This document shows, one piece after another, positions 1 to 13,317 of a stretch of 64,000 nucleotides of DNA. The notes beneath the pieces are model-generated. The model saw nothing but the letters and a program-made list of their open reading frames with translations, had not been told where the DNA came from and did not search any database. The stretch covers positions 177,659 to 241,658 of the forward strand of contig JAZKDI010000003.1 in assembly GCA_040387655.1 (NCBI GenBank). Direction: 5' to 3'. How positions within the stretch are numbered: position 1 is the stretch's first letter; each line of letters opens with the position of its first letter. This DNA comes from Bacteroidota bacterium (GTDB lineage: Bacteria; Bacteroidota; Bacteroidia; Flavobacteriales; Flavobacteriaceae). Both the position numbers and the translations under genes were made by a program.

Positions 1-1718
1 CACCAACGTAAAACATCTCCCCAAGCTTCATACTTTGGTAAAGCAACTTTTGGAATTTGAGAATGTGATAAACTTTCGGTATGGGTGGCAATTTTTATTT
101 CCTTATCCCTTACTTTAAAGGTATAAACTGGATTTTTATATTTATTTACTTTTTCATCCCAAGTTAAAATGATTTCCCAGTTGTAAGCATCTAAATCCAT
201 TTTTACTTTATCAAACTGACTTAGTAAAAGGTTGATAAATACTTTATTTTCAGCATCAGCGGTAACTGAATTTTCATCAATTCCAGTTTTCTTAATTACC
301 GGTACTTTACCCGAAACACTTTCTAATGTTTTGAAGATTCCAAATAATTTTTGTGCTACTTTTTGTTGGCTTAAAGCCGTAGCATCATATTTACGATTGT
401 TTTCTGCAATTTCTGATAAATATCGGGTTCTGTGTGGTGGAATTACAAAAATTTTCTCGCTCATTTCACGAGTGATTTTGAAAGTGGATTTCAAATCGCT
501 TTCCGTTTTTTCAACGATCTTATCCATAATCGCTTTGTAAAGCGTGTTCATTCCCGGATCGTTGAACTGAGAAGCAATCGTCCCAAAAACTGGCATTTGA
601 TCCGGATTCACATCCCAAAGATTATGATTGCGTTGGTATTGTTTTTTTACATCACGAATGGCATCCAATGCTCCTCTTTTATCAAATTTATTCAAAGCCA
701 CTAAATCGGCAAAGTCCAACATATCGATTTTTTCCAATTGGGTTGCAGCTCCAAATTCAGGTGTCATTACATATAAAGAAACATCGGAATGGTCCATAAT
801 TTCTGTATCTGATTGACCAATTCCCGAAGTTTCAAGGATAATCAAATCATAATTTGCTGCTTTGATAACCTGAATAGCATCAGCAACATATTTTGACAAA
901 GCTAAATTTGACTGACGCGTTGCCAATGAGCGCATATACACTCTTGGATTATTTATAGCATTCATACGGATTCTATCTCCAAGAAGCGCTCCCCCAGTTT
1001 TACGTTTCGATGGATCCACAGAAATTAATCCGATAGTTTTTTCAGGAAAATCAATTAAAAAACGGCGAACCAATTCATCTACTAAAGATGATTTTCCAGA
1101 CCCACCCGTTCCAGTAATTCCCAAAACCGGGATTTTGGAGGTTTCATTTTTTTTACGAATTTCTGTAAAAGCAGTTTTTGCCGTTTCAGGGAAATTTTCT
1201 GCTGCCGAGATCAAACGAGCAATAGCAGTAGGGTTTTTTTCGTCTAAATGATTGATTTCACCATTCAGTTTATCTCCAACAGGAAAATCCGAACGTTGAA
1301 CCAAATCATTAATCATCCCTTGTAAACCCATGGCGCGACCATCATCTGGAGCATAAATCCTTGTGATTCCGTAATCCTGTAGTTCGGCAATTTCCGAAGG
1401 TAAAATCACACCTCCGCCTCCACCAAAAATCTTGATATGACCTGCTCCTTTTTCTTTGAGCAAATCATACATATATTTAAAATACTCATTATGTCCACCT
1501 TGATAAGATGTCATTGCAATTGCATTAGCATCTTCTTGAATAGCAGTATTTACAACCTCTTCCACACTTCTGTCATGTCCCAAATGAATCACCTCAACTC
1601 CTGTTGACTGGATGATCCTCCGCATAATATTAATTGCCGCATCATGCCCATCAAAAAGTGATGCTGCAGTTACAATTCTTACTTTATTTACAGGAATATA
1701 AGGGATTTGCGCTTCCAT
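1..1718 (-). CDS. icmF: Fused B12-binding domain / MeaB-type GTPase / acyl-CoA mutase (IcmF-like methylmalonyl-CoA mutase family), 5' part only
   Basis: Absent from the ORF track because it runs off the left edge. Manual translation from the ATG at 1718 gives [36 protein letters not shown] (DxHxxG-type B12 motif) followed by a P-loop [12 protein letters not shown] and a DRIRMN MeaB motif. Confidence 0.85.
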
Positions 1719-1873
1719 AGTTTAATATGATATTAATTTTAGGGACGCAATTTACGAAATTCCTAAAAATTAGAGGTTTTAAAATTTTATTTTTATAAAA
1801 AAATAGCTTTTTAGAGATAGTTAATGATTTATATTTATTGTTTTAAGGGTTTTTTTAATGGTATGCTATTTGT

Positions 1874-1881
1874 TATCTTTG
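1874..1881 (+). promoter_or_regulatory. Bacteroidota -7 promoter box TATCTTTG
   Basis: Matches TAnnTTTG 15 nt before the ATG at 1897, which favours 1897 over 1858 as the start. Confidence 0.6.
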
Positions 1882-1896
1882 AGAAAAATAAATTTT

Positions 1897-2619
1897 ATGA
1901 AAAAGATACTCTTCCTATTATTACTAGTTCCTATGATTAGTAATGCTCAATTAAAAGGTTTAATAAAAAAAGCAGGGGACAAAGCGGCAGCATTAGCAAC
2001 CCCAAATTCGGGTTTGGATATTGGTGCTGGTTTAAAAGAAGCGTTAAACAAAGGTGTTACTGAGCAAGTTTCGAAATTAACTGCAGAAGATGGTTTTTAT
2101 AAAAATGAAACTGTAAAAATCCTAATGCCGGATGAATTGCAAAAAGTTGATAAGGCATTACGCAAAGCTGGAATGGCAAATCTTGCCGATGACGGAATTA
2201 AAGCTCTTAACCGCGCTGCGGAAGATGCAGTTAAAGAAGCTACTCCAATTTTTGTTTCAGCTATAAAAAACATGAGTATAACCGATGCAAAAAGCATTTT
2301 AATGGGTAATGAAAATGCAGCTACAGTTTATTTACAATCTGAAACCACTACTCCTCTTTACGCAAAATTCAATCCTATAGTTAAACAATCCATAGGAAAA
2401 GTAGGAGCTGATGTAATTTGGGCATCAATTATTAAAAAATACAACAGTATCCCATTAGTATCAAAAATAAATCCTGACATTACTGATTATGTTACCAATA
2501 AAGCACTGGAAGGTGTTTTTAAAATGATTACCGTTGAAGAAAAAAATATCAGAACCAATATTAATTCAAGAACATCGGATGTTTTGAGAAAAATATTTGC
2601 GATGCAGGATAAGAAGTAG
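1897..2619 (+). CDS. DUF4197 family secreted protein (copy 1, SPI signal)
   Basis: Signal peptide MKKILFLLLLVPMISNA; GLKEAL, NRAAEDA and EEKNIRTN motifs; clear paralog of the next gene. Confidence 0.8.
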   Translation: MKKILFLLLLVPMISNAQLKGLIKKAGDKAAALATPNSGLDIGAGLKEALNKGVTEQVSKLTAEDGFYKNETVKILMPDELQKVDKALRKAGMANLADDGIKALNRAAEDAVKEATPIFVSAIKNMSITDAKSILMGNENAATVYLQSETTTPLYAKFNPIVKQSIGKVGADVIWASIIKKYNSIPLVSKINPDITDYVTNKALEGVFKMITVEEKNIRTNINSRTSDVLRKIFAMQDKK

Positions 2620-2623
2620 TTAG

Positions 2624-2651
2624 CAGTAATTAGTTTTCAGTATTCAGTCTT
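2624..2651 (+). repeat. Degenerate 7-bp tandem array after stop codon
   Basis: CAGTAAT TAGTTTT CAGTATT CAGTCTT. Confidence 0.6.
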
Positions 2652-2664
2652 AAATTAAATACCT

Positions 2665-3372
2665 ATGAAAAAAATAGTAGCATTATCATCATTATTCCTG
2701 CTTTTTGGCTGTGCCGAATTACAGCAAATTGCCAGTCAATATCCAGAACTTGGCGCATTGGGTAACCAAGATATCGCCATGGGTCTTAAAGAAGCCCTTA
2801 ACAACGGAATATCTAAACAGGTAACAAAATTAACCGCCACCGATGGTTTCTATAAAAACCAATTGGTAAAAATTTTGCTTCCGCCAGAATTACAAAAAGT
2901 AGATAAAACTTTAAGGGATATTGGTTTGAGCAGTCTTGCCGATGAAGGACTAAAAGTACTTAACCGTGCAGCGGAAGATGGAGTAAAAGAAGCTACTCCA
3001 ATATTTGTCGATGCGGTAAGAAACATGACTTTTAATGATGCCCGAACTATTTTAATGGGCAGTGAGGATTCGGCTACGAGTTATTTGCAGAATTCAACCT
3101 CAACAGCTTTATACAGTAAATTTAGTCCCGTTGTTCAAAATTCTTTAGGAAAAGTAGGCGCTGACAAAGTCTGGGCAAATATTATAACCAAATACAATTC
3201 GATTCCGCTTGTAAAAAAAGTAAACCCTGATTTAAAGGATTATGTTACTCAAGAAGCAATGAAAGGTGTTTTTAAAATGGTTGCTATTGAAGAAAAAAAC
3301 ATTAGAACTAATTTGAACTCAAGAACATCGGATTTATTAAAGAGAGTTTTTGCTATGCAGGACAAGAAGTAG
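2665..3372 (+). CDS. DUF4197 family lipoprotein (copy 2)
   Basis: Lipobox LLFGC; same motifs as copy 1 and identical C-terminus FAMQDKK. Confidence 0.8.
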   Translation: MKKIVALSSLFLLFGCAELQQIASQYPELGALGNQDIAMGLKEALNNGISKQVTKLTATDGFYKNQLVKILLPPELQKVDKTLRDIGLSSLADEGLKVLNRAAEDGVKEATPIFVDAVRNMTFNDARTILMGSEDSATSYLQNSTSTALYSKFSPVVQNSLGKVGADKVWANIITKYNSIPLVKKVNPDLKDYVTQEAMKGVFKMVAIEEKNIRTNLNSRTSDLLKRVFAMQDKK

Positions 3373-3510
3373 TGTTTAGTTGAGTGCATTTAAATAATAG
3401 CAATTCAATAACATTCATATAATATAGAATTTACAAGAATTTCGATGTTTAACCAGATATTTGCCTTATAATAAATTAGAGGTTTTCGTTGGGTTAGTTA
3501 GTTAAGAAAG

Positions 3511-3541
3511 ACCAGTGTTTTAGGATGCTGGTTTTTTTTTA
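3511..3541 (+). terminator. Intrinsic terminator
   Basis: Stem ACCAGTGTT/GATGCTGGT followed by a T run; the G-U pairs work only on the + strand. Confidence 0.65.
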
Positions 3542-3548
3542 TTTAAAT

Positions 3549-4946
3549 TTAAAGTGAATTGATAAAATCCAATAATTCATTTCTCTTATCGGTTGCCAAT
3601 TGCTTGAATTTAACTTTAGCATTTTCTGCTTCCCCGCCATGCCATAAAATAGCTTCGGTAACATTCTTTGCCCTACCATCGTGTAATAAATTAGTGTGGT
3701 TGTTGACCGTCTGAATCAATCCAATTCCCCACAAAGGCGGTGTTCTCCATTCGTTACCAGTCGCTAAATAATCCGGTGCATTATCGGCTAAATTTATCCC
3801 CATATCGTGGAGCAATAAATCGGTGTAAGGTCTAATTGTTTGGTTTCTTAAAGCCGTAATTGAGTGTGTGTTTCCTGTTTGTATTTTTGGGATATGACAA
3901 GCGGTACATCCTATGATTTCAAAAGTTTTTTTCCCTTTCAAAACATTTTGTTTGTTATAATTTCTTCGTGCCGGAACTGATAAAGTACTGGAATACAAGA
4001 CTACTTTATTCAAATTTGAATCGGATATTTCTGGTGAACCCCCATTTGAAATCAAATTACAATCTACACCTGGTGGACAATTTTCATTAGGAAACAAACT
4101 AGTGGTAATTCCCATATCGCCTAAAAAAGCTCCTGCAACCTGTTGCTTGATATTGGGTTGATTTGCTTTCCATCCAAAACGACCTAGTTTTTGAGTATTG
4201 GAAACAACATCATAAACATAATTTGGTTTACCCGAAATACCGTCCCCATTTGCATCATTTACATCGGCGAATGCCAGAATAATATCTTCGGAAATGGCTT
4301 CCAATAATCCAAGTCCAATCATTTGATTTGCAACTCGAGGAGAAACCTGTAAATTGGCTGCCATAGCGCCATAACCTAAAGTATTGAATTGGTAAATTGG
4401 TTTTTTTAATAGTACTTCCGTTCCATCTGCTAAAGTTTCTGTCATGGATTCAAAAGTAATGTTGAATTTTCCTTTTATGGTTTGGCCTAAAATAGCATTG
4501 TCCTGCAATTGACCTCCATAACTTGGATCTGCAAAAGAACTTCCATTAGAATTAGTTCCCGGAATGCTTAATCTTAAAAGCAATCCATGAGCCGTTTCTC
4601 CATCAAATAAAGGAGTCCTTCCACGGCCATCCTTAAAGTGACAACTGGAACAGGAATTGGCATTAAAAAAAGGACCTAAACCATCCCTTGCTGTGGTTGA
4701 TGCGGGAGCAGTAACCCAACTTTGCCTAAAAAAAGAATTTCCTATTCCGAAATCAGATTTTTCATCTGAAGTTAGATTGTGTGAAAAAAAACCAAAAGCC
4801 TCTTCAGTTTCATTAAACACGGTTGCATCGCCTCCCGAATATTGTTCACCCTCTTCGGCAGTCAATAAAACATATTCATCATCATTCCCACAACTAAAAA
4901 ATTGTGTGACAATCAATAAAATAAATACTAAATGAGTTCTTCTCAT
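3549..4946 (-). CDS. Di-heme oxidoreductase family lipoprotein (DUF1111 / thiol oxidoreductase-like)
   Basis: Two CxxCH motifs (CSSCH, CTACH), YTDLLLHDMG, WRTPPLWGIG and LLHDGRA motifs, lipobox FFSC. ATG at 4946 preferred over TTG at 4955. Confidence 0.85.
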   Translation of the reverse strand: MRRTHLVFILLIVTQFFSCGNDDEYVLLTAEEGEQYSGGDATVFNETEEAFGFFSHNLTSDEKSDFGIGNSFFRQSWVTAPASTTARDGLGPFFNANSCSSCHFKDGRGRTPLFDGETAHGLLLRLSIPGTNSNGSSFADPSYGGQLQDNAILGQTIKGKFNITFESMTETLADGTEVLLKKPIYQFNTLGYGAMAANLQVSPRVANQMIGLGLLEAISEDIILAFADVNDANGDGISGKPNYVYDVVSNTQKLGRFGWKANQPNIKQQVAGAFLGDMGITTSLFPNENCPPGVDCNLISNGGSPEISDSNLNKVVLYSSTLSVPARRNYNKQNVLKGKKTFEIIGCTACHIPKIQTGNTHSITALRNQTIRPYTDLLLHDMGINLADNAPDYLATGNEWRTPPLWGIGLIQTVNNHTNLLHDGRAKNVTEAILWHGGEAENAKVKFKQLATDKRNELLDFINSL

Positions 4947-4952
4947 ACTTTG

Positions 4953-4960
4953 CAAAAATA
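4953..4960 (-). promoter_or_regulatory. -7 box TATTTTTG for the di-heme gene
   Basis: CAAAAATA on +, ending 6 nt before the ATG. Confidence 0.5.
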
Positions 4961-4961
4961 G

Positions 4962-4993
4962 AAAAAGTGTCCATTAAAAATGAACACTTTTTT
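4962..4993 (-). terminator. Intrinsic terminator after imelysin 1
   Basis: AAAAAGTGTTCATT-TTT-AATGGACACTTTTT on the minus strand; the one G-U pair is valid only on minus. Confidence 0.7.
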
Positions 4994-5010
4994 AAATAAA
5001 AATATTCTTA

Positions 5011-6171
5011 TTATCCGTTAACCGTAATTCCGATTTTTGAAGCACCTGCTAATAAATTAGCACCAAAATCCTGTAATTGCAAAACTGCCGCTTTTACTTT
5101 TGCTCCTTCAGTTGAACTTGCCCCTCCTGAAATAGCCAAATCAAATGGAATCAAAATCGCAGCCACTTTAGCTAAAGAAGCGTTTAGGGAAACATCGGTA
5201 GAATCATACGCTTCTTCATTAGCTTGTTTTACTAAATCTTCTAATGATGCACCATCAATTGAACCATATTTTCCTTGATATACGTTAATAACCCCTTGTA
5301 GGTTTAAGGCAATATCTCGGTGTGTATTATCGCTAAAACAAGAATGTTCATCTTCCTGATCTGCATTACCCAATGCTACATCCATACGTTCAATAGGCAA
5401 TTCTGCAGATACCAAAGTAGTAATTCCCAAATAAATATTCTTAATCGCTACATTTGAAGCTAAACCTAGAAATGTAGTTCTATAAGCTCCACCCACTTTC
5501 CATTGGTTCACCATATAATCTAAATTATCTGTCAACAAATCGGCACAAGCTTTTAAATAGTCTTTTCTTCTTGTTTGATTTGAGGCAGTTCCTCCAGTCA
5601 CATAATCAGTATATGGTCTTAAACCAGATTGATTTGCAGATGGCGCTGTTAAATCCTGACCCCAAAGTAAAAATTCTATGGCGTGATAACCAACGCTGAT
5701 GTTTTTTTCCCCTCCCGATTCATTCAATCCTTCTAAAATTGATTTATTGATTACTGGAAACAATCCTACATTATTTATTATCCCTGCCGTTGTGTTTCCC
5801 TGTACATAATCTACATAATTTTCATCTAAAGGCCAAGCATTCATCAATCCTTCAGGGCCATTTTCATCGTCTATAGGTCCATTCGCAAAACGAAAAGCTT
5901 CAGTTGTACCATAACTTTCCCTGGACTGTTTCCATTTGGCTTTAGCAGTATCAAAATTAGCTTGTGTAGGCGTTGTTGTAAAAGTAGTTATTGCAGTTTC
6001 CAATTCGACTGCATCATCATAAGCTTGCTTGTAATTGGCGTAAGCAATAGCTGCATAGTTTTCTATTACTTGCCTTTTCGTTACATCATTATTGGATTCC
6101 TCTTTATTGCAGGACACAATAAAAAAAGTCAAACCAAAAATAATTATTGACCCAAGAAATATTTTTTTCAT
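5011..6171 (-). CDS. Imelysin family lipoprotein (IrpA/IcmP-like)
   Basis: Lipobox IVSC, NAWPLDE, GYHAIEFLLWG (GxHxxE), DEHSCFSDNT. Confidence 0.85.
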   Translation of the reverse strand: MKKIFLGSIIIFGLTFFIVSCNKEESNNDVTKRQVIENYAAIAYANYKQAYDDAVELETAITTFTTTPTQANFDTAKAKWKQSRESYGTTEAFRFANGPIDDENGPEGLMNAWPLDENYVDYVQGNTTAGIINNVGLFPVINKSILEGLNESGGEKNISVGYHAIEFLLWGQDLTAPSANQSGLRPYTDYVTGGTASNQTRRKDYLKACADLLTDNLDYMVNQWKVGGAYRTTFLGLASNVAIKNIYLGITTLVSAELPIERMDVALGNADQEDEHSCFSDNTHRDIALNLQGVINVYQGKYGSIDGASLEDLVKQANEEAYDSTDVSLNASLAKVAAILIPFDLAISGGASSTEGAKVKAAVLQLQDFGANLLAGASKIGITVNG

Positions 6172-6204
6172 AATTCCCTATTATTAAAACAGTTATTTTT
6201 TTGG

Positions 6205-6212
6205 CAAAAATA
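6205..6212 (-). promoter_or_regulatory. -7 box TATTTTTG, leftward promoter
   Basis: CAAAAATA on +; a TTG lies 18 nt upstream (6231-6233). Confidence 0.6.
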
Positions 6213-6236
6213 CATACTTTTTAAAATAATCAATCC

Positions 6237-6259
6237 TTATTTAGAATAATTTAAAATAA
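6237..6259. promoter_or_regulatory. Fur-box-like imperfect palindrome 1
   Basis: TTATTTAGAATAATTTAAAATAA, a variant of TTATTTAGAATnATTCTAAATAA. Confidence 0.65.
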
Positions 6260-6283
6260 ATTTTTTTATTCCAAAATTGATTT

Positions 6284-6291
6284 TATATTTG
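6284..6291 (+). promoter_or_regulatory. -7 box TATATTTG, rightward promoter
   Basis: Exact TAnnTTTG 38 nt before the ATG at 6330. Confidence 0.65.
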
Positions 6292-6299
6292 CACCATAA

Positions 6300-6322
6300 T
6301 TATTCTTAATCATTCTAAATAA
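6300..6322. promoter_or_regulatory. Fur-box-like imperfect palindrome 2
   Basis: TTATTCTTAATCATTCTAAATAA (reverse complement TTATTTAGAATGATTAAGAATAA), lying between the -7 box and the ATG. Confidence 0.65.
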
Positions 6323-6329
6323 ACACAAA

Positions 6330-7556
6330 ATGAAATTTAAAAATTTATTACTTGCCGCATTACCAATTATAGCAATAACATTCACATCTTGTTCAGATGA
6401 TGATGCTTCGCCAGAAGTTTTTGACTACACAACGCCTGATACTTACAGTTTTGAAAGAGAAACAACTTCTACTGTAGATTTTTCTGCATCTACATCACGT
6501 TTATTGATGTTAGATCAAATGGGGAAATACATTTCTACCCAAGCAACTGCTTCTGCAATTGTAGATGACAATCGTTTATCTGCAATGTTCTCAAATACAG
6601 GTGCTGAAACATTTTTTACTGGAGCGGCTTTAGCGACTGGAATTCAATTGAAAGACAAAACAGCAGGATCAAAAGATTACTTCGTTACTTATTTAGGTGG
6701 AGGAACTTTAGCAGAACAAACTGCAGTTAGAGCTCTATTTGAAACTCAATTCGACAATGCAAAACTAGCAAGTTTAGGAACTGTTGCTGCTCCTGGAGTA
6801 GCTGGTAAATACAGTACAAACAGATTGTTTGCCGCGAATGGATTAGAGCCAGGACAAGTATTGGCAAAAGGAATGATGGGAGCTTGTTTGATGGATCAAA
6901 TCGTAAACAATTATTTAAGCAAAAGTATATTGGACCAAGGGTCAAACAAAGCAGACAATACTAATGGCGTTTTGGTTTCTGGAAAATCATATACTGCTAT
7001 GGAACATGCTTGGGATGAAGCGTATGGTTTAATCTATGGAGCTGATGTTGCCGCTACAGGAAGTACAGCTGCATCTTATAAATTCTGGAGTTCTTATATC
7101 AACCAAGTAAATGCTGATGTTGATTTTAATACTTTAAGAGCAGATATTGATTTGGCTTTCCGTACCGGTAGAGCAGCAATCGTTGCGCATGATTATGCTG
7201 AGCGTGATAATCAAGCTAAAATCATTAAAGAAAAATTAGCAATTGTTCCTGCTGTAAGAGCTGTATTTTACATGAATGAAGGTAAATCTAAATTAACTAC
7301 AGATGGTGGAGCTGCTGCTTTTCACGGATTTTCAGAAGGATACGGTTTCATTATGTCATTACGTTACACTAACAAACCTGGAACTAACACCCCATACTTT
7401 ACAAAAGCAGAGGTTGATGCCATGTTAGCATCACTAATAAGTGGTCCAAATGGTTTATGGGATATTGACCATGTAGGGGCGAAATCTGATGCTATTGCTT
7501 TACAAATAGCTACAAGATTTGGCTTCACAGTTGAACAAGCTATCCTTGTTAACTAA
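6330..7556 (+). CDS. DUF4856-like lipoprotein
   Basis: Lipobox FTSC; MEHAWDEAYG and FHGFSEGYGF motifs; context of the imelysin/HTTM/TBDR cluster. Confidence 0.7.
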   Translation: MKFKNLLLAALPIIAITFTSCSDDDASPEVFDYTTPDTYSFERETTSTVDFSASTSRLLMLDQMGKYISTQATASAIVDDNRLSAMFSNTGAETFFTGAALATGIQLKDKTAGSKDYFVTYLGGGTLAEQTAVRALFETQFDNAKLASLGTVAAPGVAGKYSTNRLFAANGLEPGQVLAKGMMGACLMDQIVNNYLSKSILDQGSNKADNTNGVLVSGKSYTAMEHAWDEAYGLIYGADVAATGSTAASYKFWSSYINQVNADVDFNTLRADIDLAFRTGRAAIVAHDYAERDNQAKIIKEKLAIVPAVRAVFYMNEGKSKLTTDGGAAAFHGFSEGYGFIMSLRYTNKPGTNTPYFTKAEVDAMLASLISGPNGLWDIDHVGAKSDAIALQIATRFGFTVEQAILVN

Positions 7557-7608
7557 AAACAACATAAAATAAAAAGAAAGCAAGGGAAATATCTTCTCTT
7601 CCTTTTTG

Positions 7609-7616
7609 TACTTTTG
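7609..7616 (+). promoter_or_regulatory. Internal -7 box TACTTTTG
   Basis: 17 nt before the ATG at 7634. Confidence 0.5.
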
Positions 7617-7633
7617 CAAAAATTTTTAAGACA

Positions 7634-8746
7634 ATGAAAAAGATAATCTTATTAGGTTTGTTAGTTATTATTTCAGCTTGTTCTTCAAGCGGAAGCGGTT
7701 CTGAAGACAATGGCGATAATTATGACAGAACTGTTCTCTTAACCAATTGGGCTGATAATATTATCGTTCCTAGCTATGAAAATTATCAAACAAAAATAGA
7801 TTTATTGATAGCTAGTACCAGCACCTTTACAACTGCACCAACCGCTATTAATCTTCAAACATTAAGGGCTTCGTGGTTAGATGCATACAAAGCATTTCAA
7901 TATACAACAATGTATAATTTCGGAAAAGCAGAAGAAGTTTATTATAATGAAACTTCCAATACTTACCCAACAAATACAACAGGAATTGAAACCAATATCA
8001 GTTCTGGAACTTACAACCTTACTTTGATATCCCAATTTGACAAGCAAGGTTTCCCAGCTTTGGATTATCTTATAAACGGACTTGGAACAACAGATTCTGC
8101 TATAGTTAGTTTTTACACAACTAATCCCAATGCCTTGAAATACAAAGATTATTTAACCGCTGTTACAACAAGATTGAAATCGACTATTGATTTGGTTGTA
8201 ACCGATTGGAACACTAGTTTTAGGGATACTTACATTGCTAATAACGGAAATACCGTTAGCAGTTCAGTAAACAAGACAACCAATAATTTTGTAAAGAACC
8301 TTGAAAAAACGGTACGTACAGGAAAAATAGGAATCCCTGCTGGAGTGTTTTCTGCAGGAACAAAATATCCAGAAAAAGTAGAAGCTTTTTATAAAAACGA
8401 TGCTTCAAAAATATTACTCGACGAATCAATAAGAGCTGTTCAGGATTTTTTTAACGGAAAGCATTTTGGAACTTCAACAACAGGAGCAAGCTTAAAAGGA
8501 TATTTGGATTTTTTAAATACCGTTAGGGATGGTGAAAAATTAAGTGACATTATCAATACGCAATTCAATACTATTTACATCACAAATAATGTATTGTCAA
8601 CTAGTTTTTCACAACAGATAAACACTGATAATACCAAGATGATTAATTCATACGATGCTTTACAGCAAAATGTAATCTATACTAAACTTGACATGATGCA
8701 GGCTTTAAACATAACAATAGATTATGTTGATGGCGATGGCGATTAA
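7634..8746 (+). CDS. Imelysin family lipoprotein 2 (lacks HxxE)
   Basis: Lipobox ISAC, NTYPTN, GFPALDYL, acidic C-terminus DYVDGDGD. Confidence 0.8.
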   Translation: MKKIILLGLLVIISACSSSGSGSEDNGDNYDRTVLLTNWADNIIVPSYENYQTKIDLLIASTSTFTTAPTAINLQTLRASWLDAYKAFQYTTMYNFGKAEEVYYNETSNTYPTNTTGIETNISSGTYNLTLISQFDKQGFPALDYLINGLGTTDSAIVSFYTTNPNALKYKDYLTAVTTRLKSTIDLVVTDWNTSFRDTYIANNGNTVSSSVNKTTNNFVKNLEKTVRTGKIGIPAGVFSAGTKYPEKVEAFYKNDASKILLDESIRAVQDFFNGKHFGTSTTGASLKGYLDFLNTVRDGEKLSDIINTQFNTIYITNNVLSTSFSQQINTDNTKMINSYDALQQNVIYTKLDMMQALNITIDYVDGDGD

Positions 8747-8748
8747 TT

Positions 8749-10116
8749 ATGAACAGCATCAATAAATACCTGAATACGTATTCACAGTCTACAACGCTAG
8801 CTTTTTTTAGGCTAGCGTTTGGTTTTATGATGCTTTTAAGTTTGATTCGGTTTGCTGCCTACGGTTGGATTGAAAAGTTTTATATAAAACCTCAATTTCA
8901 CTTTACCTATTATGGATTTGAATGGGTAAAACCTATTGGAAATTACACATATGCCCTATTTATAATTTGTGGAGTTGCGGCTTTTTTTGTGGCTATTGGA
9001 TATAAATATAAATTAGCGATTGTTACTTTCTTTTTGAGTTTCACTTATATCGAATTAATGGACAAAACCACCTATTTGAACCATTATTACTTTATTACCG
9101 TAATTAGTTTTGTACTGATTTTTTTGCCAGCAAATTGTAATTTTTCAGTCGATGCCAATAGAGATTCAAAACTGGCTTTTGAAAAAATTCCACGTTGGAA
9201 CACCGACATATTAAAATTGTTGTTGGCTGTAGTATATATTTATGCAGGTATAGCAAAGATTAATTCCGATTGGTTATTGGAAGCAATGCCTTTAAAAATA
9301 TGGTTACCGGGAAATACGGAGTTGCCCATTATTGGAACCCTTTTAAATAAAAACTGGATCCATTATGCTTTCAGTTGGACTGGAATGTTTTATGACCTTA
9401 CAATCGTTTTTTTATTGTTGTATAAACGAACGCGTGTTTTTGGTTTTATGTTAGTTGTGGTATTTCACATTTTAACACGGATATTATTTCCTATTGGAAT
9501 TTTTCCGTATGTGATGATTATAAGTTCATTATTGTTTTTTGAAGCCGGTTTTCATAGAAAATGCTTAGTTTATTTTTCAAAAATCACGAAATACAGGCTG
9601 GCACTTTCTGAAAATGGAAAAGAAAAGAAATCGAATTCAGATAGCTTGTCTCACAAGATTCAAATAGGGATTTTGTCTAGTTTTATATTGTTTCAACTAT
9701 TGTTTCCTTTTCGCTATCTATTATATAAAGATGAATTATTCTGGACAGAAGAAGGTTATCGCTTTTCATGGCGGGTAATGCTTATGGAAAAGGCGGGTTA
9801 TACGCAGTTTGTAGTTTCTGACAAGAATACAAAACAAAATATCAGGGTGAACAACAGCCAGTTTTTAACTCCGTTTCAGGAAAAACAAATGGCCTTCCAA
9901 CCTGATTTTATATTGGAATATGCACATCATTTACACGACTATTATCAAAAAAAAGGAATGCAAAACCCAGAAGTGCGAGTCGAAAGTTATGTTGCCCTCA
10001 ACGGAAGATTAAGTAAAAAATACATTGACCCTAAAATAAATTTAGCCATAGAAAATGAATCATTCAAACACAAAACCTGGATATTGCCTTTCAATGATTC
10101 CATCCAAGGGTTTTAG
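8749..10116 (+). CDS. HTTM domain / vitamin K-dependent gamma-carboxylase-like membrane protein
   Basis: Multiple transmembrane segments; DKTTYLNHYYF, YAGIAKINSDWL, GYRFSWRVML and ALNGR..IDP motifs resemble GGCX. Confidence 0.85.
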   Translation: MNSINKYLNTYSQSTTLAFFRLAFGFMMLLSLIRFAAYGWIEKFYIKPQFHFTYYGFEWVKPIGNYTYALFIICGVAAFFVAIGYKYKLAIVTFFLSFTYIELMDKTTYLNHYYFITVISFVLIFLPANCNFSVDANRDSKLAFEKIPRWNTDILKLLLAVVYIYAGIAKINSDWLLEAMPLKIWLPGNTELPIIGTLLNKNWIHYAFSWTGMFYDLTIVFLLLYKRTRVFGFMLVVVFHILTRILFPIGIFPYVMIISSLLFFEAGFHRKCLVYFSKITKYRLALSENGKEKKSNSDSLSHKIQIGILSSFILFQLLFPFRYLLYKDELFWTEEGYRFSWRVMLMEKAGYTQFVVSDKNTKQNIRVNNSQFLTPFQEKQMAFQPDFILEYAHHLHDYYQKKGMQNPEVRVESYVALNGRLSKKYIDPKINLAIENESFKHKTWILPFNDSIQGF

Positions 10117-12532
10117 TATAATCTTGTTTTTCTTATTATCCATAACTAGCTTCTCACAAAATAAAATTTGGGGAGTGATCACCAATACTAATGGCGAAAA
10201 ATTATCCTATGTAGAAGTTTATAACAAAACTTCCGGAACAAAACAAATAACCGACTCAAAAGGGGAATTTACCATAGAAAATGACAGTCCCGGCGAATAT
10301 GAAATTGTTTTTTATAAAGACAACTATGTGATTTTAGAAAAAACACTTTCTACCTCAGCCATTAAAACAACTATTGTTTTAGATAAAGTAAATACTATTT
10401 CAGAAGTAGTCATCAATGGTCAAAAGGAAAAATTATTTGCACTAAATAAATTAAAGGACATTGAGGAAACTGCTATATATGCTGGAAAAAAAACAGAAGT
10501 AATTTCGTTGAATAAAATTACTGCTAACAAGGCTACCAACAATGCCCGACAAATTTTTGCGCAAGTTGTGGGCCTAACAATCAATGAAAGTTCAGATGGT
10601 GGATTACAGCTAAGTATTGGTGGCAGGGGATTGGATCCCAACCGAACTTCTAATTTTAATACACGTCAAAACGGCTATGATATTAGTGCCGATGTTTTGG
10701 GCTATCCAGAAAGTTATTATGCAACTCCTACCGAAGCATTGGAAGAAATTCAAGTTATCCGTGGGGCGGCTTCTTTACAGTACGGAACACAATTTGGCGG
10801 TTTGGTAAATTTCAAAACCAAGACTCCTAGTTTAAAACAAATCGAATTTACTACCAGAAATACAATCGGTTCATATAATTTATATACCAATTTCACTTCC
10901 TTGAGCGGAACAAAAGGAAAATTCAGTTACTATACTTTTTTTAATTTCAAAAAAGGGGATGGATTCAGACCGAATTCTCAATTTGACAGTAAAAATTATT
11001 TCGCCAACCTTAATTATCAGTTTACATCAAAAACTTCCGTCCATTTTGATTATACTCATTTTAATTATTTAGCCCAACAAGCGGGAGGGCTTACGGATGT
11101 TATGTTTAACGACAATTCGCAACAAAGCAATAGAACCCGGAATTGGTTTGCTATAAACTGGAACTTATTTGCCTTGAGATTAAAACATAAAATTACTCCT
11201 ACTGCAGATTTCTCCTTACAATTATTTGGTTTGGATGCCAGTCGAAAAGCTATTGGATACCGTTCCAATAGGGTTTCAAACCCTGACACTCCAGATACTG
11301 TAAGGGATTTAATTATTGGTGGTTTTGTTAATTGGGGTGCAGAAGCGCGATTTTTAAAGCGTTATAAATTTCTAGGAAACAGCAGTGCTTTTTTAATCGG
11401 AAGTAAATATTATCAATCAGAAAATACCGCAATTCAAGGTCCAGGAAGTTCTGGCACTAATGCCAATTTTAATGTGGCCGACAGCGAATTCCCATTTTAT
11501 GCCAACCAATCGAATTATACGTTTCCCAATTTAAATATTTCAGTTTTTGGGGAAAACATTTTTAAAATCACACCCAAATTTTCAGTAACCCCGGGTTTTA
11601 GATTTGAAAGGATAAAAACGCAGGCGATAGGTTCATACCGAAAAATAAATCTTGATTTGGCAGGAAATGTAATCTTGGACCAGACGATTAAAGAAAACAA
11701 CATCAAAGACCGAAATTTTGTTTTTTTAGGAATTGGGTTGAGTTACAAACCAAAAAACAGATTGGAATTTTACGGAAACGTTTCTCAAAACTACCGCTCA
11801 GTTACCTTTAACGACATCAGAACAGTTAGTCCCAGTCAAGTAATCTCTGCCGATATTACTGATGAAAGAGGCTATACATCCGATATTGGAATCAGGGGTC
11901 AATTAGGTACTAAAGTTACTTTTGACACCAGTATTTATGGGCTGTATTACAATGATAAAATCGGTGAATATGAAACCACGAACCCAAATGGTGCAGCGGC
12001 AATAGTTCGTTTTCGTGACAATATAGGAACAGCATTGACTTATGGTTTTGAAACCATGATTGACTGGAGTTTGAGTAAAACATTTTTTAGTAAAAATGAA
12101 AATTTTACATGGAACTTATTTACGAATTCAGCAATAACCAATTCTGAATATTTAAAATCCGATGCACCCAATATTGAAGGAAACAAAGTAGAATTCGTGC
12201 CGCTTTTCAATTTCAAAACGGGTACGGGAATAGGTTATAAAAATTTTATGTCGAGTATTCAGTTTACGTATGTATCATCACAGTTTACAGATGCAAACAA
12301 TAGTATGACTGACCCAAACGACAATACTTACGGTATTTTTGGACAGATTCCCGCATATTATGTAGCTGACATTTCCGCTTCCTATAAATGGAGAAGGTTT
12401 AAATTGGAAGCCGGGATTTCGAACTTTACCAACAACAACTATTTTACACGAAGAGCAACAGGTTATCCAGGTCCTGGAATTATTCCATCTGACACAAGAA
12501 CATTTTATACGACGCTGGAATTTATATTTTAA
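10094..12532 (+). CDS. TonB-dependent receptor (FecA-like) with N-terminal carboxypeptidase-regulatory-like domain
   Basis: Plug motifs GGRGLDPNR and IRGAASLQYG; barrel ending in F (TLEFIF). ATG at 10094 gives a clean signal peptide. Confidence 0.9.
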   Translation: MIPSKGFSIILFFLLSITSFSQNKIWGVITNTNGEKLSYVEVYNKTSGTKQITDSKGEFTIENDSPGEYEIVFYKDNYVILEKTLSTSAIKTTIVLDKVNTISEVVINGQKEKLFALNKLKDIEETAIYAGKKTEVISLNKITANKATNNARQIFAQVVGLTINESSDGGLQLSIGGRGLDPNRTSNFNTRQNGYDISADVLGYPESYYATPTEALEEIQVIRGAASLQYGTQFGGLVNFKTKTPSLKQIEFTTRNTIGSYNLYTNFTSLSGTKGKFSYYTFFNFKKGDGFRPNSQFDSKNYFANLNYQFTSKTSVHFDYTHFNYLAQQAGGLTDVMFNDNSQQSNRTRNWFAINWNLFALRLKHKITPTADFSLQLFGLDASRKAIGYRSNRVSNPDTPDTVRDLIIGGFVNWGAEARFLKRYKFLGNSSAFLIGSKYYQSENTAIQGPGSSGTNANFNVADSEFPFYANQSNYTFPNLNISVFGENIFKITPKFSVTPGFRFERIKTQAIGSYRKINLDLAGNVILDQTIKENNIKDRNFVFLGIGLSYKPKNRLEFYGNVSQNYRSVTFNDIRTVSPSQVISADITDERGYTSDIGIRGQLGTKVTFDTSIYGLYYNDKIGEYETTNPNGAAAIVRFRDNIGTALTYGFETMIDWSLSKTFFSKNENFTWNLFTNSAITNSEYLKSDAPNIEGNKVEFVPLFNFKTGTGIGYKNFMSSIQFTYVSSQFTDANNSMTDPNDNTYGIFGQIPAYYVADISASYKWRRFKLEAGISNFTNNNYFTRRATGYPGPGIIPSDTRTFYTTLEFIF

Positions 12533-13317
12533 ATCGTAGAATGCAGTGCCTTAAAATAATCGAAGGCTTTTAAAAGGCGGCTTCCGTACCAAGAAAACAT
12601 TTCGCCATCAACGAGAATAATTTTTGCTTTTGGGATAAATTGCTGGATATCTGCAATGTGTTTTTCTTTGAACGGATAAGGTTCTGAGGACAATAAGACC
12701 AATTCGGGATTCCCTTTTTCAGTAATTCTCTCCAGTTGAATTTCTGGATAACGTCCTTCATCATATATATTCTGAAAATGATTCAGTTTTAATAATTCAT
12801 TGATAAAATTATCACTGCCAGCTACCATATATGGCTTTGCCCAAATAAAATAAGCAGTTTTTTTGAATGGTTTTTCTTTTATAAAAATTTGGAAATCGTG
12901 ATAGGCTGCATCAATTTTATCAACCCATTTACGGGCTTCATTTTCACAGTCCAACAATTTTCCGAAATCGGAAATCATTTGTTGATTGTCTTCAACAGTA
13001 ATAATGTTAGTTACCCAAACAGGACATATTTGTGACAATTGCTCAACGATTTCTTTGGTATTTTCTTCTTTATTGGCAATAATCAAATCGGGTTGCAGTG
13101 CTTTGATTTTATCAAAATGAATGTTTTTTGTACCACCAATTATTTGTTTTGTCTTTTTAAAACCAACTGGATGCACGCAGAATTTAGTCAAACCTATTAA
13201 TTTCGATTCCTGTCCTAAATCATAAATCAATTCCGTTTGAGAAGGAACCAATGATATAATTCTTTGAGGTAAAATTTCGAATGAATGAGTAATGCCAATT
13301 TGGTCAATCAGTTTCAT
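12529..13317 (-). CDS. Helical-backbone metal receptor (BtuF/cobalamin-binding-like)
   Basis: RIISLVPSQTE, GGTKN, PDLIIANKEEN and DGEMFSWYG motifs. Confidence 0.8.
   Translation of the reverse strand: MKLIDQIGITHSFEILPQRIISLVPSQTELIYDLGQESKLIGLTKFCVHPVGFKKTKQIIGGTKNIHFDKIKALQPDLIIANKEENTKEIVEQLSQICPVWVTNIITVEDNQQMISDFGKLLDCENEARKWVDKIDAAYHDFQIFIKEKPFKKTAYFIWAKPYMVAGSDNFINELLKLNHFQNIYDEGRYPEIQLERITEKGNPELVLLSSEPYPFKEKHIADIQQFIPKAKIILVDGEMFSWYGSRLLKAFDYFKALHSTI

What the first reader, a model, noticed from the sequence alone, without database searches (positions are those of the whole stretch)
3549..12532. Divergent six-gene iron-uptake-like system joining an imelysin/di-heme module to a DUF4856/imelysin/vitamin K carboxylase homolog/TonB receptor module
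Seen in sequence: two arms share one 158-bp promoter region with paired palindromes. They encode four lipoproteins, an inner-membrane HTTM protein and a TBDR; imelysin 2, HTTM and TBDR are coupled (2-nt gap, 23-nt overlap). Established: imelysin plus di-heme DUF1111 pairs (IrpA/IcmP-type) are iron-regulated in cyanobacteria and Proteobacteria. Inference: this is a siderophore-independent iron or metal capture machine in which a menaquinone-using membrane enzyme works with surface lipoproteins and a receptor. I know of no mechanistic description of the HTTM arm. This is the best candidate for an undescribed system in the window.
Basis: partly seen in the sequence, partly recalled or inferred. 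Interest (0 to 1): 0.8.

Follow-up and report, generated by a model that had tools for sequence, protein, structure and literature searches.

The report
Iron-starvation locus with vitamin-K-carboxylase-like enzyme
A Flavobacterium gene cluster that looks switched on by iron shortage joins outer-membrane iron-capture proteins to a bacterial relative of the human vitamin-K-dependent (blood-clotting) carboxylase with its active site intact; what that enzyme does there has never been studied, and this locus makes it testable.

Summary
The six genes, the 158-bp divergent control region, the 2-nt gap and the 23-nt overlap are all as described. The rightward operon DUF4856–imelysin-2–HTTM–TonB receptor is conserved gene for gene across Bacteroidota: in an even sample of 401 genomes, 71 of 75 orthologous HTTM genes follow an imelysin-2 gene. 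Its upstream region carries a Fur-box-like palindrome in 63 of 71 loci. The homologous Riemerella cluster is published as induced by iron restriction, but no mechanism is described.

The HTTM protein keeps the catalytic Lys, the His and the whole naphthoquinone pocket of human GGCX in 79 of 79 orthologs.

New here:
- The two arms are fused into one operon (imelysin–di-haem–imelysin–HTTM) in Myxococcota, Chloroflexota, Acidobacteriota and other Bacteroidota. They therefore do belong together, although only a minority of Flavobacterium loci place them side by side.
- The invariant acidic C-terminal tail of imelysin-2 also occurs in Proteobacteria that have no HTTM at all. There DUF1513 takes the fourth position, so the tail is not an HTTM-specific mark.
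- HTTM presence shows no link to VKOR.
- One Flavobacterium has cleanly lost HTTM.
- DUF4856 is a distant relative of FEA1 and has no solved fold relative.

Function remains inferred.

The parts
3504..3539 (.). Hairpin with flanking A/T runs just past the DHOR stop; likely terminator of the leftward arm
   Evidence: 16-pair stem followed by a T run
3549..4955 (-). Di-haem DHOR/DUF1111 lipoprotein (likely start ATG at 4946); haem motifs CSSCH at 4638-4652 and CTACH at 3894-3908
   Evidence: Pfam PF06537 E 9e-103; motifs; lipobox Cys in 14 of 14 orthologs, acidic LES-like N-terminus in 12 of 14
5011..6171 (-). Imelysin-1, ICMP/IrpA type with GxHxxE (GYHAIE, 5674-5691); lipoprotein with C-N-K-E-E, which matches the published surface-export signal C-X-K-(D/E)2
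   Evidence: PF09375 E 8e-65; motif; LES consensus from PMC5080379; 15 of 15 orthologs are LES-like
6172..6329 (.). 158-bp divergent control region
6205..6212 (-). Bacteroidota-type -7 box (TAnnTTTG read on the minus strand) for the leftward arm
   Evidence: sequence; the consensus is recalled from the literature and was not tested here
6239..6257 (.). Fur-box-like palindrome 1 (ATTTAGAATAATTTAAAAT), lying between the two promoters
   Evidence: 2 mismatches to the R. anatipestifer Fur box; one of 6 such sites in the genome
6284..6291 (+). Bacteroidota-type -7 box TATATTTG for the rightward operon
   Evidence: sequence
6302..6320 (.). Fur-box-like site 2 (ATTCTTAATCATTCTAAAT), just downstream of the rightward -7 box
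   Evidence: 3 mismatches
6330..7556 (+). DUF4856 lipoprotein (C-S-D-D-D surface-export-like signal); conserved motifs EHxWDEAYG (7002-7028) and FHxxSEGYGF (7320-7349); distant FEA1-related
   Evidence: PF16148 E 6e-122; invariant columns; 34 of 52 members hit NCBIfam NF038033, best E 2.6e-9; AF2 pLDDT 90 with no PDB fold match
7634..8746 (+). Imelysin-2, IPPA type (GxxxxD in place of GxHxxE), lipoprotein; invariant C-terminal tail D-Y-V-D-G-D-G-D at 8720-8743
8749..10116 (+). HTTM + VKGC-lumenal-domain membrane enzyme; H112 (9082-9084) = human H160, K170 (9256-9258) = human K218
10094..12532 (+). TonB-dependent receptor with N-terminal CarboxypepD_reg-like domain, plug and barrel; start overlaps the HTTM stop by 23 nt

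Best explanation
This is a Fur-repressed, iron-starvation-induced envelope iron-acquisition locus of a Flavobacterium, made of two modules that work together. Module 1 (leftward) is an ICMP-type imelysin plus a di-haem DHOR, the widespread imelysin/peroxidase pair. Module 2 (rightward) has four genes. The first is an FEA1-related DUF4856 lipoprotein, which probably captures iron at the surface. The second is an IPPA-type imelysin with a flexible acidic C-terminal tail. The third is an inner-membrane enzyme homologous to the vitamin-K-dependent carboxylase. The fourth is a TonB-dependent receptor that brings the captured metal across the outer membrane. The fixed evolutionary core is the imelysin-2/HTTM pair. 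HTTM is most likely a catalytically active enzyme that uses menaquinol, faces the periplasm and acts on or with imelysin-2. My preferred chemistry, at about 30-35%, is the only one demonstrated for this enzyme family: quinol oxygenation drives proton abstraction and carboxylation of a carboxylate-bearing residue, here an Asp or Glu of the partner imelysin, to make or tune a metal-binding site. Shown: gene content, the conserved operon, a conserved Fur-box-like site, an intact catalytic and quinone site, and linkage of the two modules in other phyla. Taken from a paper: iron and Fur induction of the same-order cluster in Riemerella. Inferred: iron as the substrate, the localisation of each protein, and every chemical step of HTTM.
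For: Operon conservation: DUF4856-imelysin-2-HTTM-TBDR is in nearly all of the 80 best loci. In 401 evenly sampled Bacteroidota genomes, 71 of 75 ortholog-type HTTM genes have imelysin-2 directly upstream, against 0 of 22 paralog-type HTTM genes.

Translational coupling is conserved.

Iron control: a Fur box with 3 or fewer mismatches is found in 63 of 71 upstream regions, against 0.2% of shuffles. The genome encodes Fur. The R. anatipestifer genes RAYM_09779-09794 (TBDR, 'vitamin K-dependent gamma-carboxylase', imelysin lipoprotein, hypothetical) are induced by iron restriction and in the fur mutant (PMC5609570).

Enzyme: the match to human GGCX residues 55-505 has E 2e-42. K218, H160, N159, F286, F294, F299, V210, W223, A214 and G259 are invariant in 79 orthologs; their roles are taken from PMC12589487.

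The two arms belong together: imelysin-DHOR-imelysin-HTTM is a single co-directional operon in Acidobacteriota (L115), Myxococcota, Chloroflexota, Gemmatimonadota and other Bacteroidota.

HTTM-bearing operons are found in phyla that use menaquinone, while ubiquinone-using Gamma- and Betaproteobacteria carry DUF1513 at that position. The quinone types are chemotaxonomy recalled from memory.

DUF4856 relates to the FEA1-related lipoprotein family.

Imelysin-like lipoproteins and a FecA-like receptor are abundant in outer-membrane vesicles of Tenacibaculum (PMC10288586).
Against:
- Orthology to the Riemerella genes rests on annotation and gene order, not on a sequence comparison made here.
- The protein stops at the equivalent of human residue ~505, so it has no counterpart of the C-terminal ~250 residues of the 758-residue human GGCX. 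From memory, not checked here, that missing part includes some of the propeptide-binding region. Two residues that hold the substrate backbone are changed: N158 to L and R436 to Q. Y395 is Y or F.
- The genome has no VKOR. Across 401 genomes VKOR is unrelated to HTTM: 11 of 73 against 64 of 328, p = 0.5. A vitamin-K epoxide cycle is therefore not evident.
- The acidic tail also occurs in Proteobacteria with no VKGC-type protein anywhere in the genome. It does not need HTTM.
- One Flavobacterium keeps DUF4856-imelysin-2(tail)-TBDR with HTTM cleanly absent and no HTTM elsewhere in the genome.
- From memory, the Leptospira homologue showed epoxidase but no carboxylase activity.
Confidence: 0.6

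Rival explanations
1. HTTM is a quinol-oxidising redox module, not a carboxylase. Periplasmic imelysin-2 takes Fe3+ from the receptor and docks on HTTM by its acidic tail. Bound menaquinol then reduces the iron to Fe2+, which enters through FeoB. No epoxide is made.
For: The operon encodes no inner-membrane transporter. The genome has FeoB but no FTR1/EfeU. There is no VKOR and no VKOR association, which fits chemistry that regenerates the quinone. The imelysin-HTTM pair exists without a TBDR in Chloroflexota (L127), so the role lies at the cytoplasmic membrane. A Lys base and a quinone pocket are needed for any quinol oxidation. In one proteobacterial operon, DUF1513 at the HTTM position is followed by a multicopper oxidase, which gives a redox theme.
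Against: No member of the VKGC/HTTM family is known to transfer electrons to a metal. The family has no metal or haem cofactor. The residues that hold a substrate carboxylate next to the quinone (N159, H160) are invariant, which fits proton abstraction equally well.
Confidence: 0.25
2. The two arms are independent neighbours. The imelysin-1/DHOR pair and the DUF4856-imelysin-2-HTTM-TBDR operon are separate iron-regulated systems that merely share a Fur-controlled intergenic region in this lineage.
For: Only 14 of 80 related loci have DHOR/imelysin-1 within the fetched flanks. Its position varies: divergent, downstream (L017, L067) or convergent (L173). The four-gene operon is complete without it in most Bacteroidota.
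Against: In at least four other phyla and in other Bacteroidota, imelysin-1, DHOR, imelysin-2 and HTTM form one co-directional, overlapping operon. In several Flavobacterium loci the pair stands exactly where DUF4856 normally is (L011, L018, L020, L022-L025).
Confidence: 0.25
3. HTTM is a non-catalytic inner-membrane scaffold or permease that takes the place of EfeU in an EfeUOB-like system.
For: It is the only polytopic inner-membrane protein of the system. The imelysin fold is that of EfeO/EfeM. No FTR1 is present in the genome.
Against: The catalytic Lys/His and the entire quinone pocket are invariant over 79 orthologs, and also in paralogs, which is not expected of a mere scaffold. In Proteobacteria the equivalent position is held by a soluble Tat-exported propeller, not a permease.
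Confidence: 0.07
4. The system handles something other than iron: another metal such as Cu or Mn, or a glycan, as proposed for some imelysin-like proteins.
For: Algp7, an EfeO-like protein, binds alginate (PDB 3AT7 title). An imelysin-like protein of Gramella forsetii and its neighbour rose on laminarin (PMC4069401). The receptor is far below every NCBIfam cut-off, so its ligand is unknown.
Against: A Fur-box-like site is conserved across the phylum. The Riemerella cluster is induced by iron restriction. DUF4856 relates to FEA1-related lipoproteins. Neighbouring genes in other loci include an iron-type solute-binding protein and a multicopper oxidase.
Confidence: 0.1

Closest known systems
Riemerella anatipestifer RAYM_09779-RAYM_09794 (Guo et al. 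2017, PMC5609570)
   Same: Four consecutive genes annotated TonB-dependent receptor, vitamin K-dependent gamma-carboxylase, imelysin lipoprotein and hypothetical protein. They are induced by iron restriction and listed among Fur-regulated genes. The Fur-box consensus from that paper matches the window's control region.
   Different: It is only a row set in an RNA-seq table, with no functional or mechanistic work. No divergent imelysin-1/DHOR arm is reported. Orthology was not checked by sequence here.
[quoted passage not shown] 2011 (PMC3143127)
   Same: ICMP-type imelysin (GxHxxE), di-haem DUF1111/DHOR and an IPPA-type imelysin lacking the His. Proteobacterial operons of this type found here carry the same acidic C-terminal tail on the second imelysin.
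   Different: The fourth component in the proteobacterial operons examined here is DUF1513, a Tat-exported propeller. In the window it is the HTTM enzyme. In the window the unit is split into two divergent arms and extended by DUF4856 and a TonB receptor.
[quoted passage not shown]
   Same: HTTM membrane domain plus the first lumenal domain, E 2e-42. The catalytic K218, H160, N159 and the naphthoquinone pocket are conserved.
   Different: The protein has 455 residues against 758. It lacks the C-terminal part of the human enzyme. K217, N158, R436, M401 and N290 are replaced. There is no VKOR partner in the genome. The substrate is unknown.
EfeUOB ferrous-iron uptake system
   Same: An imelysin/M75-fold metal-binding protein works with a haem peroxidase. 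The imelysin-2 model matches EfeO and EfeM structures at TM about 0.4-0.66.
   Different: There is no EfeU/FTR1 permease anywhere in the genome. The peroxidase is di-haem DHOR, not DyP. An outer-membrane receptor and the HTTM enzyme are added.
[quoted passage not shown]
   Same: A bacterial HTTM-family enzyme with proven carboxylase chemistry on an aspartyl residue.
   Different: It acts on a polyketide-peptide intermediate in a biosynthetic cluster. It has no link to imelysin, a TonB receptor or iron. It was not compared by sequence here.

Membership tests
Vitamin-K-dependent carboxylase (VKGC/GGCX) family | HTTM membrane domain followed by the VKGC lumenal domain | tested here: met
   PF05090 E 3e-78 and PF22777 E 2.5e-59; phmmer to human GGCX residues 55-505, E 2e-42
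Vitamin-K-dependent carboxylase (VKGC/GGCX) family | Catalytic base Lys218 and His160 | tested here: met
   K170 and H112; invariant in 79 of 79 orthologs
Vitamin-K-dependent carboxylase (VKGC/GGCX) family | Naphthoquinone head pocket (F286, F294, F299, V210, W223, M401) and tail tunnel (A214, G259) | tested here: met
   All invariant except M401 to V, which is itself invariant as V; residue roles from PMC12589487
Vitamin-K-dependent carboxylase (VKGC/GGCX) family | Glu-substrate pocket (N159, H160 and Y395 hold the side chain; N158 and R436 hold the backbone) | tested here: inconclusive
   N159 and H160 are kept, Y395 is Y or F, N158 is L and R436 is Q
Vitamin-K-dependent carboxylase (VKGC/GGCX) family | C-terminal part of the lumenal domain (human residues beyond ~505), which from memory includes part of the propeptide-binding region | tested here: not met
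   The protein ends at the equivalent of human residue ~505
Vitamin-K-dependent carboxylase (VKGC/GGCX) family | Partner VKOR that recycles the quinone epoxide | tested here: not met
   No PF07884 in the own genome; no association across 401 genomes
Vitamin-K-dependent carboxylase (VKGC/GGCX) family | Carboxylase or epoxidase activity | not testable with these tools
   Needs biochemistry
Imelysin (Peptidase_M75), ICMP/IrpA type (imelysin-1) | M75 domain with the GxHxxE motif | tested here: met
   PF09375 E 8e-65; GYHAIE at residues 161-166
Imelysin-like, IPPA type (imelysin-2) | Imelysin fold with the motif lacking the His (GxxxxE) | tested here: met
   AF2 model pLDDT 92; Foldseek match to 3PF0 with TM 0.71/0.82; GFPALD with G139 invariant and D144 nearly invariant, so Asp stands in place of Glu
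PA4370-PA4373-type imelysin operon | Imelysin, DHOR and a second imelysin in one Fur-regulated unit | tested here: met
   All three are present around one Fur-box region, although split into divergent arms
PA4370-PA4373-type imelysin operon | DUF1513 as the fourth gene | tested here: not met
   HTTM is in that position; DUF1513 was found only in the proteobacterial loci L171, L210 and L238
EfeUOB | EfeU/FTR1 permease | tested here: not met
   No PF03239 in the genome
TonB-dependent receptor | Plug domain plus 22-strand barrel domain | tested here: met
   PF07715 and PF00593; far below every NCBIfam substrate-specific cut-off
DUF4856 / FEA1-related lipoproteins | Match to PF16148; relation to NF038033 | tested here: met
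   PF16148 E 6e-122. NF038033 is matched by 34 of 52 members, but all fall far below its cut-off, so this is a distant relative and not a member
Fur regulon | Fur box in the promoter and Fur-dependent expression | tested here: inconclusive
   The motif is present and conserved.

The most novel reading that the evidence does not exclude
A bacterial vitamin-K-dependent carboxylase homologue has a protein substrate. In iron-starved bacteria that use menaquinone (Bacteroidota, Myxococcota, Chloroflexota, Acidobacteriota), it would use menaquinol and O2 to carboxylate an Asp or Glu of its dedicated imelysin partner. That would create a malonate-type (Gla-like) iron-chelating group. Gla-type metal-binding chemistry, so far a matter of animal clotting and bone proteins, would then be an ancient bacterial device for iron capture.
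Probability: 0.25. Interest if true: 0.9.

Novelty: new variant of a known kind. Interest (0 to 1): 0.72.

Why it matters
No physiological role is known to me for most bacterial relatives of the vitamin-K-dependent carboxylase; the one proven case I found cited is an antibiotic pathway. Here such an enzyme, with its active site intact, is a fixed part of an iron-starvation operon in roughly a fifth of sampled Bacteroidota genomes, including fish and bird pathogens. It is also part of a related four-gene operon in several other phyla. That gives a defined partner protein, a defined inducing condition and simple mutants with which to test its chemistry. It would also fill a gap in how aerobic Bacteroidota, which are major marine and freshwater degraders, obtain iron. 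Finally, it gives a first functional handle on DUF4856, DUF1111/DHOR and, by positional equivalence, DUF1513.

Tried and rejected
- **DUF4856 as a diverged imelysin: not supported.** Its pLDDT-90 model finds no PDB relative (best Foldseek E 0.2, TM below 0.2). The imelysin-2 model finds imelysins easily. hhalign gives only a 51-column local match at 83% probability. PDB sequence and profile searches are empty.
- **The acidic tail as an HTTM-specific signature or substrate mark: rejected as a general rule.** The tail is present in Thiothrix, Alteromonadales, Parazoarcus and Pseudomaricurvus operons whose genomes have no VKGC-type protein.
- **A coupled vitamin-K cycle: rejected.** VKOR is absent here and unassociated with HTTM.
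- **All Bacteroidota HTTM proteins as iron-linked: rejected.** A 26-37%-identical paralog clade sits after ribF or in other contexts with no imelysin. A few orphan orthologs lie beside housekeeping genes.
- **The sigma-70 promoter and terminator scan was uninformative.** Counts equalled the shuffles, and Bacteroidota promoters differ from that consensus.
- **PDB sequence searches with DHOR and with the receptor found nothing**.
- **Literature searches found no paper.** The terms were 'DUF4856' and 'HTTM' with 'imelysin'.

Full report
**1. Observation**

The window has about 34% G+C, and its closest relatives are Flavobacterium species.
- DHOR/DUF1111, 3549-4955(-), with two CxxCH motifs.
- Imelysin-1, 5011-6171(-), with GYHAIE = GxHxxE.
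- DUF4856, 6330-7556(+).
- Imelysin-2, 7634-8746(+).
- HTTM + VKGC lumenal domain, 8749-10116(+).
- A TonB-dependent receptor with a CarboxypepD_reg-like domain, plug and barrel, starting at 10094.

The intergenic region is 158 bp, the imelysin-2/HTTM gap is 2 nt, and the HTTM/receptor overlap is 23 nt. The four soluble proteins have lipoprotein-type signal peptides whose Cys is conserved in orthologs. The cluster is single-copy in a 3.1-Mb genome.

**2. Is the association real?**

I fetched the 80 best HTTM loci from one-genome-per-species contigs. They cover Flavobacteriia, Cytophagia, Saprospiraceae, Chitinophagales and Balneolales. The order DUF4856-imelysin-2-HTTM-receptor recurs almost without exception.

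HTTM and the receptor overlap in 68 of 74 loci, by 20-23 nt in 61 of them. The median imelysin-2 to HTTM gap is 5 nt.

In an even sample of 401 Bacteroidota genomes:
- 73 genomes (about 18%) carry an ortholog-type HTTM, defined as at least 40% identity.
- 71 of the 75 such genes have an imelysin-2 gene immediately upstream on the same strand.
- None of the 22 paralog-type HTTM genes (26-37% identity) has one. Several of those paralogs follow ribF.

The leftward imelysin-1/DHOR arm is different. It lies within the fetched flanks in only 14 of the 80 loci. In L011, L018, L020 and L022-L025 it stands where DUF4856 normally is.

**3. Iron control**

Guo et al. 2017 (PMC5609570) list four consecutive Riemerella anatipestifer genes among those induced by iron restriction and in a fur mutant. 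The genes are annotated TonB-dependent receptor, vitamin K-dependent gamma-carboxylase, imelysin lipoprotein and hypothetical protein. The paper derives the Fur box ATTTAGAATTATTCTAAAT and supports it by EMSA on other promoters.

The window's control region holds ATTTAGAATAATTTAAAAT at 6239-6257 and ATTCTTAATCATTCTAAAT at 6302-6320.
- The first site lies between two Bacteroidota-type -7 boxes: CAAAAATA read on the minus strand at 6205-6212, and TATATTTG at 6284-6291.
- The second site lies just downstream of the rightward -7 box.
- These are positions where a bound repressor would block both arms. This reading is sequence-based, and the promoter consensus is recalled, not tested.

Genome-wide there are only six sites with 2 or fewer mismatches, against none for the reversed control pattern, and a Fur gene is present. 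Three of the other sites sit before hemA, an alternative-complex-III cytochrome gene and a gene I take to encode a DUF4198-like protein; these three identifications are from reading the sequences, not from a family scan.

Across relatives, 63 of 71 operon upstream regions carry a site with 3 or fewer mismatches, usually 90-100 nt before the start codon. Only 0.2% of dinucleotide shuffles do so.

**4. The HTTM enzyme**

It aligns to human GGCX residues 55-505 with E 2e-42. I used the residue roles given in a 2025 cryo-EM paper (PMC12589487).

Invariant in all 79 orthologs:
- the catalytic base K218 (K170 here);
- H160 (H112) and N159;
- the naphthoquinone pocket F286, F294, F299, V210 and W223;
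- the tunnel residues A214 and G259.

M401 is uniformly Val. Changed residues are K217 to A, N158 to L, R436 to Q and N290 to T, and Y395 is Y or F. The protein stops at the equivalent of human residue ~505, so it has no counterpart of the C-terminal ~250 residues of the 758-residue human enzyme. From memory, not checked here, that missing part includes some of the propeptide-binding region.

This is the profile of an active quinol-using enzyme with a retained carboxylate pocket but a different way of recognising its substrate. By homology its active site faces the periplasm.

**5. A vitamin-K cycle?**

The genome has no VKOR. In the 401-genome sample VKOR occurs in 11 of 73 HTTM genomes and 64 of 328 others (odds ratio 0.73, p = 0.5).

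High-flux epoxidation with recycling is therefore unlikely. Either turnover is low, as for a stoichiometric protein modification, or no epoxide is formed.

**6. The lipoproteins**

*Imelysin-2.* The AF2 model has pLDDT 92. It matches IPPA (3PF0, TM 0.71/0.82), ICMP (7XRX) and an IrpA-like protein (4ECG), then EfeO, EfeM and Algp7. Its last ten residues are coil with pLDDT 71, so the tail is exposed. All 73 orthologs end in D-(Y/F)-V-D-x-D-G-D.

*DUF4856.* The model has pLDDT 90 but finds no PDB fold relative. Its invariant EHxWDEAYG and FHxxSEGYGF motifs look like a metal site. 34 of 52 members hit NCBIfam 'FEA1-related lipoprotein', with best E 2.6e-9. FEA1 is an algal iron-assimilation protein; this is recalled knowledge.

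*Surface export.* Acidic residues after the lipid-anchored Cys match the published surface-export signal (PMC5080379):

| Protein | Orthologs with an LES-like N-terminus |
|---|---|
| DUF4856 | 53 of 61 |
| Imelysin-1 | 15 of 15 |
| DHOR | 12 of 14 |
| Imelysin-2 | 38 of 68 |

In the window, imelysin-2 (C-S-S-S-G-S) lacks the signal and may face the periplasm. All localisation here is inference.

**7. Beyond the phylum**

A codon-biased DNA pattern for the WTEEG(Y/F/H)R(F/L)SWR motif, and a second pattern for a tail F-(N/S)-D-N-D-G-D-stop, retrieved loci from many phyla.

In Thermoanaerobaculia (L115) the genes imelysin, DHOR, imelysin (tail NDNDGD) and HTTM overlap in one operon, confirmed by Pfam. 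An Anaerolineae locus (L127) has imelysin (tail ESDVD) overlapping HTTM by 11 nt, with no receptor.

Fifty imelysin genes end in the searched tail and have enough downstream DNA. HTTM follows directly in 36 of them:

| Group | HTTM directly downstream |
|---|---|
| Myxococcota | 14 of 15 |
| Chloroflexota | 3 of 3 |
| Bacteroidota | 14 of 23 |
| Gamma- and Betaproteobacteria | 0 of 4 |

The usual operon is imelysin-1, DHOR, imelysin-2, HTTM.

In the proteobacterial operons examined (Thiothrix, Parazoarcus, Pseudomaricurvus) the gene after the tailed imelysin is DUF1513, a Tat-exported propeller. In one case a multicopper oxidase follows it. This is the classical PA4370-PA4373 layout (PMC3143127). 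None of the nine proteobacterial genomes examined has any VKGC-lumenal-domain protein. Six of the seven Bacteroidota genomes whose tailed imelysin lacks an adjacent HTTM have one elsewhere.

Two conclusions follow:
- The acidic tail is a trait of IPPA-type imelysins in general. It works without HTTM, so by itself it is not evidence for being the enzyme's substrate. This tempers the 'tail carboxylation' idea recorded in earlier notes of this scan.
- HTTM and DUF1513 are alternative fourth components. HTTM is found in phyla that respire with menaquinone, and DUF1513 in ubiquinone users. The quinone types are chemotaxonomy from memory. The pattern fits a naphthoquinone-dependent enzyme.

**8. Natural loss**

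One species of the same genus (L160) has DUF4856, imelysin-2 (tail DYVDSDGD) and the receptor intact, with 175 bp where HTTM should be and no HTTM elsewhere in its genome. Its nearest HTTM-bearing relatives are 81-85% identical in the flanking genes.

HTTM is thus not indispensable for keeping the rest of the operon.

**9. Route across the inner membrane**

The operon encodes no transporter. The genome has FeoB but no FTR1. This keeps open the rival that HTTM uses menaquinol to reduce imelysin-bound Fe3+ for FeoB.

**10. Verdict**

Two corrections apply. The conserved unit is the four-gene operon, and deeper still the imelysin-2/HTTM pair. The imelysin-1/DHOR arm is an ancestral partner that is only sometimes adjacent.

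My confidence, by level:
- Fur-controlled iron acquisition: about 0.8-0.85.
- HTTM being an active menaquinol-dependent enzyme that works with imelysin-2: about 0.6-0.7.
- Its chemistry is unresolved. Carboxylation of an acidic residue is about 0.3, quinol-driven iron reduction about 0.25, and a scaffold or permease role under 0.1.

The cluster is known in the literature only as rows in one transcriptome table, so I rate it a new variant of a known kind of system, of high interest.

Noticed in passing
window 12529-13317 (-): A Peripla_BP_2 protein of 262 aa with no evident signal peptide. It is convergent with the receptor gene and shares 4 nt with its end. The same neighbour is present in 5 related Flavobacterium loci (L005-L007, L009, L021).
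   Followed up: partly
window 1858-3372 (+): Two tandem DUF4197 paralogs, 60% identical, lie just upstream of the DHOR gene. A DUF4197 gene sits in the same place in L005 and L006.
   Followed up: no
window 4962-4992: A 14-pair hairpin lies in the 55-nt spacer between imelysin-1 and DHOR. It may be an attenuator or an RNA-stability element within the leftward arm.
   Followed up: no
window 61655-61673, 46367-46385, 47234-47252: Three further Fur-box-like sites are in the window. The first has 2 mismatches and lies about 250 bp upstream of a 278-aa gene of unknown function.
   Followed up: partly
own genome G000:C7:67000-76100: A second DHOR-like lipoprotein (36% identical) is followed by a small gene whose N-terminus looks like a Tat signal. 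It lies divergent from what appear, from their N-terminal sequences only, to be an NRAMP-type transporter, a DtxR/MntR-like regulator and FeoB. This would be a second metal-homeostasis neighbourhood. No Fur-box-like site was found there.
   Followed up: partly
L082-L087 (e.g. L082:9397-10710): A distinct HTTM + lumenal-domain paralog clade in Flavobacteriaceae (33-36% identical) is translationally coupled to ribF (FAD synthetase) and, in L082, followed by serS. Its catalytic residues are kept, Y395 is His, and it has no iron context.
   Followed up: partly
L160:8438-8613: A Flavobacterium species has HTTM precisely missing between imelysin-2 and the receptor. The receptor there has a different N-terminus of its own.
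   Followed up: yes
L238:1740-4294: In Pseudomaricurvus the imelysin-DHOR-imelysin operon continues with DUF1513 and then a Tat-exported multicopper oxidase, which may be a ferroxidase.
   Followed up: partly
L164, L165, L166: Orphan ortholog-type HTTM genes (46-57% identical) lie beside pckA, guaB or B12-binding genes. In one of these genomes the tailed imelysin sits in a separate imelysin-DHOR-imelysin operon.
   Followed up: partly
L205 and L214: Contigs labelled Comamonadaceae and Alphaproteobacteria carry operons typical of Bacteroidota and Myxococcota. They are likely mis-binned MAG contigs.
   Followed up: no
window 3-1718 (-): A fused B12-binding domain + MeaB GTPase protein runs off the window start.
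   Followed up: no
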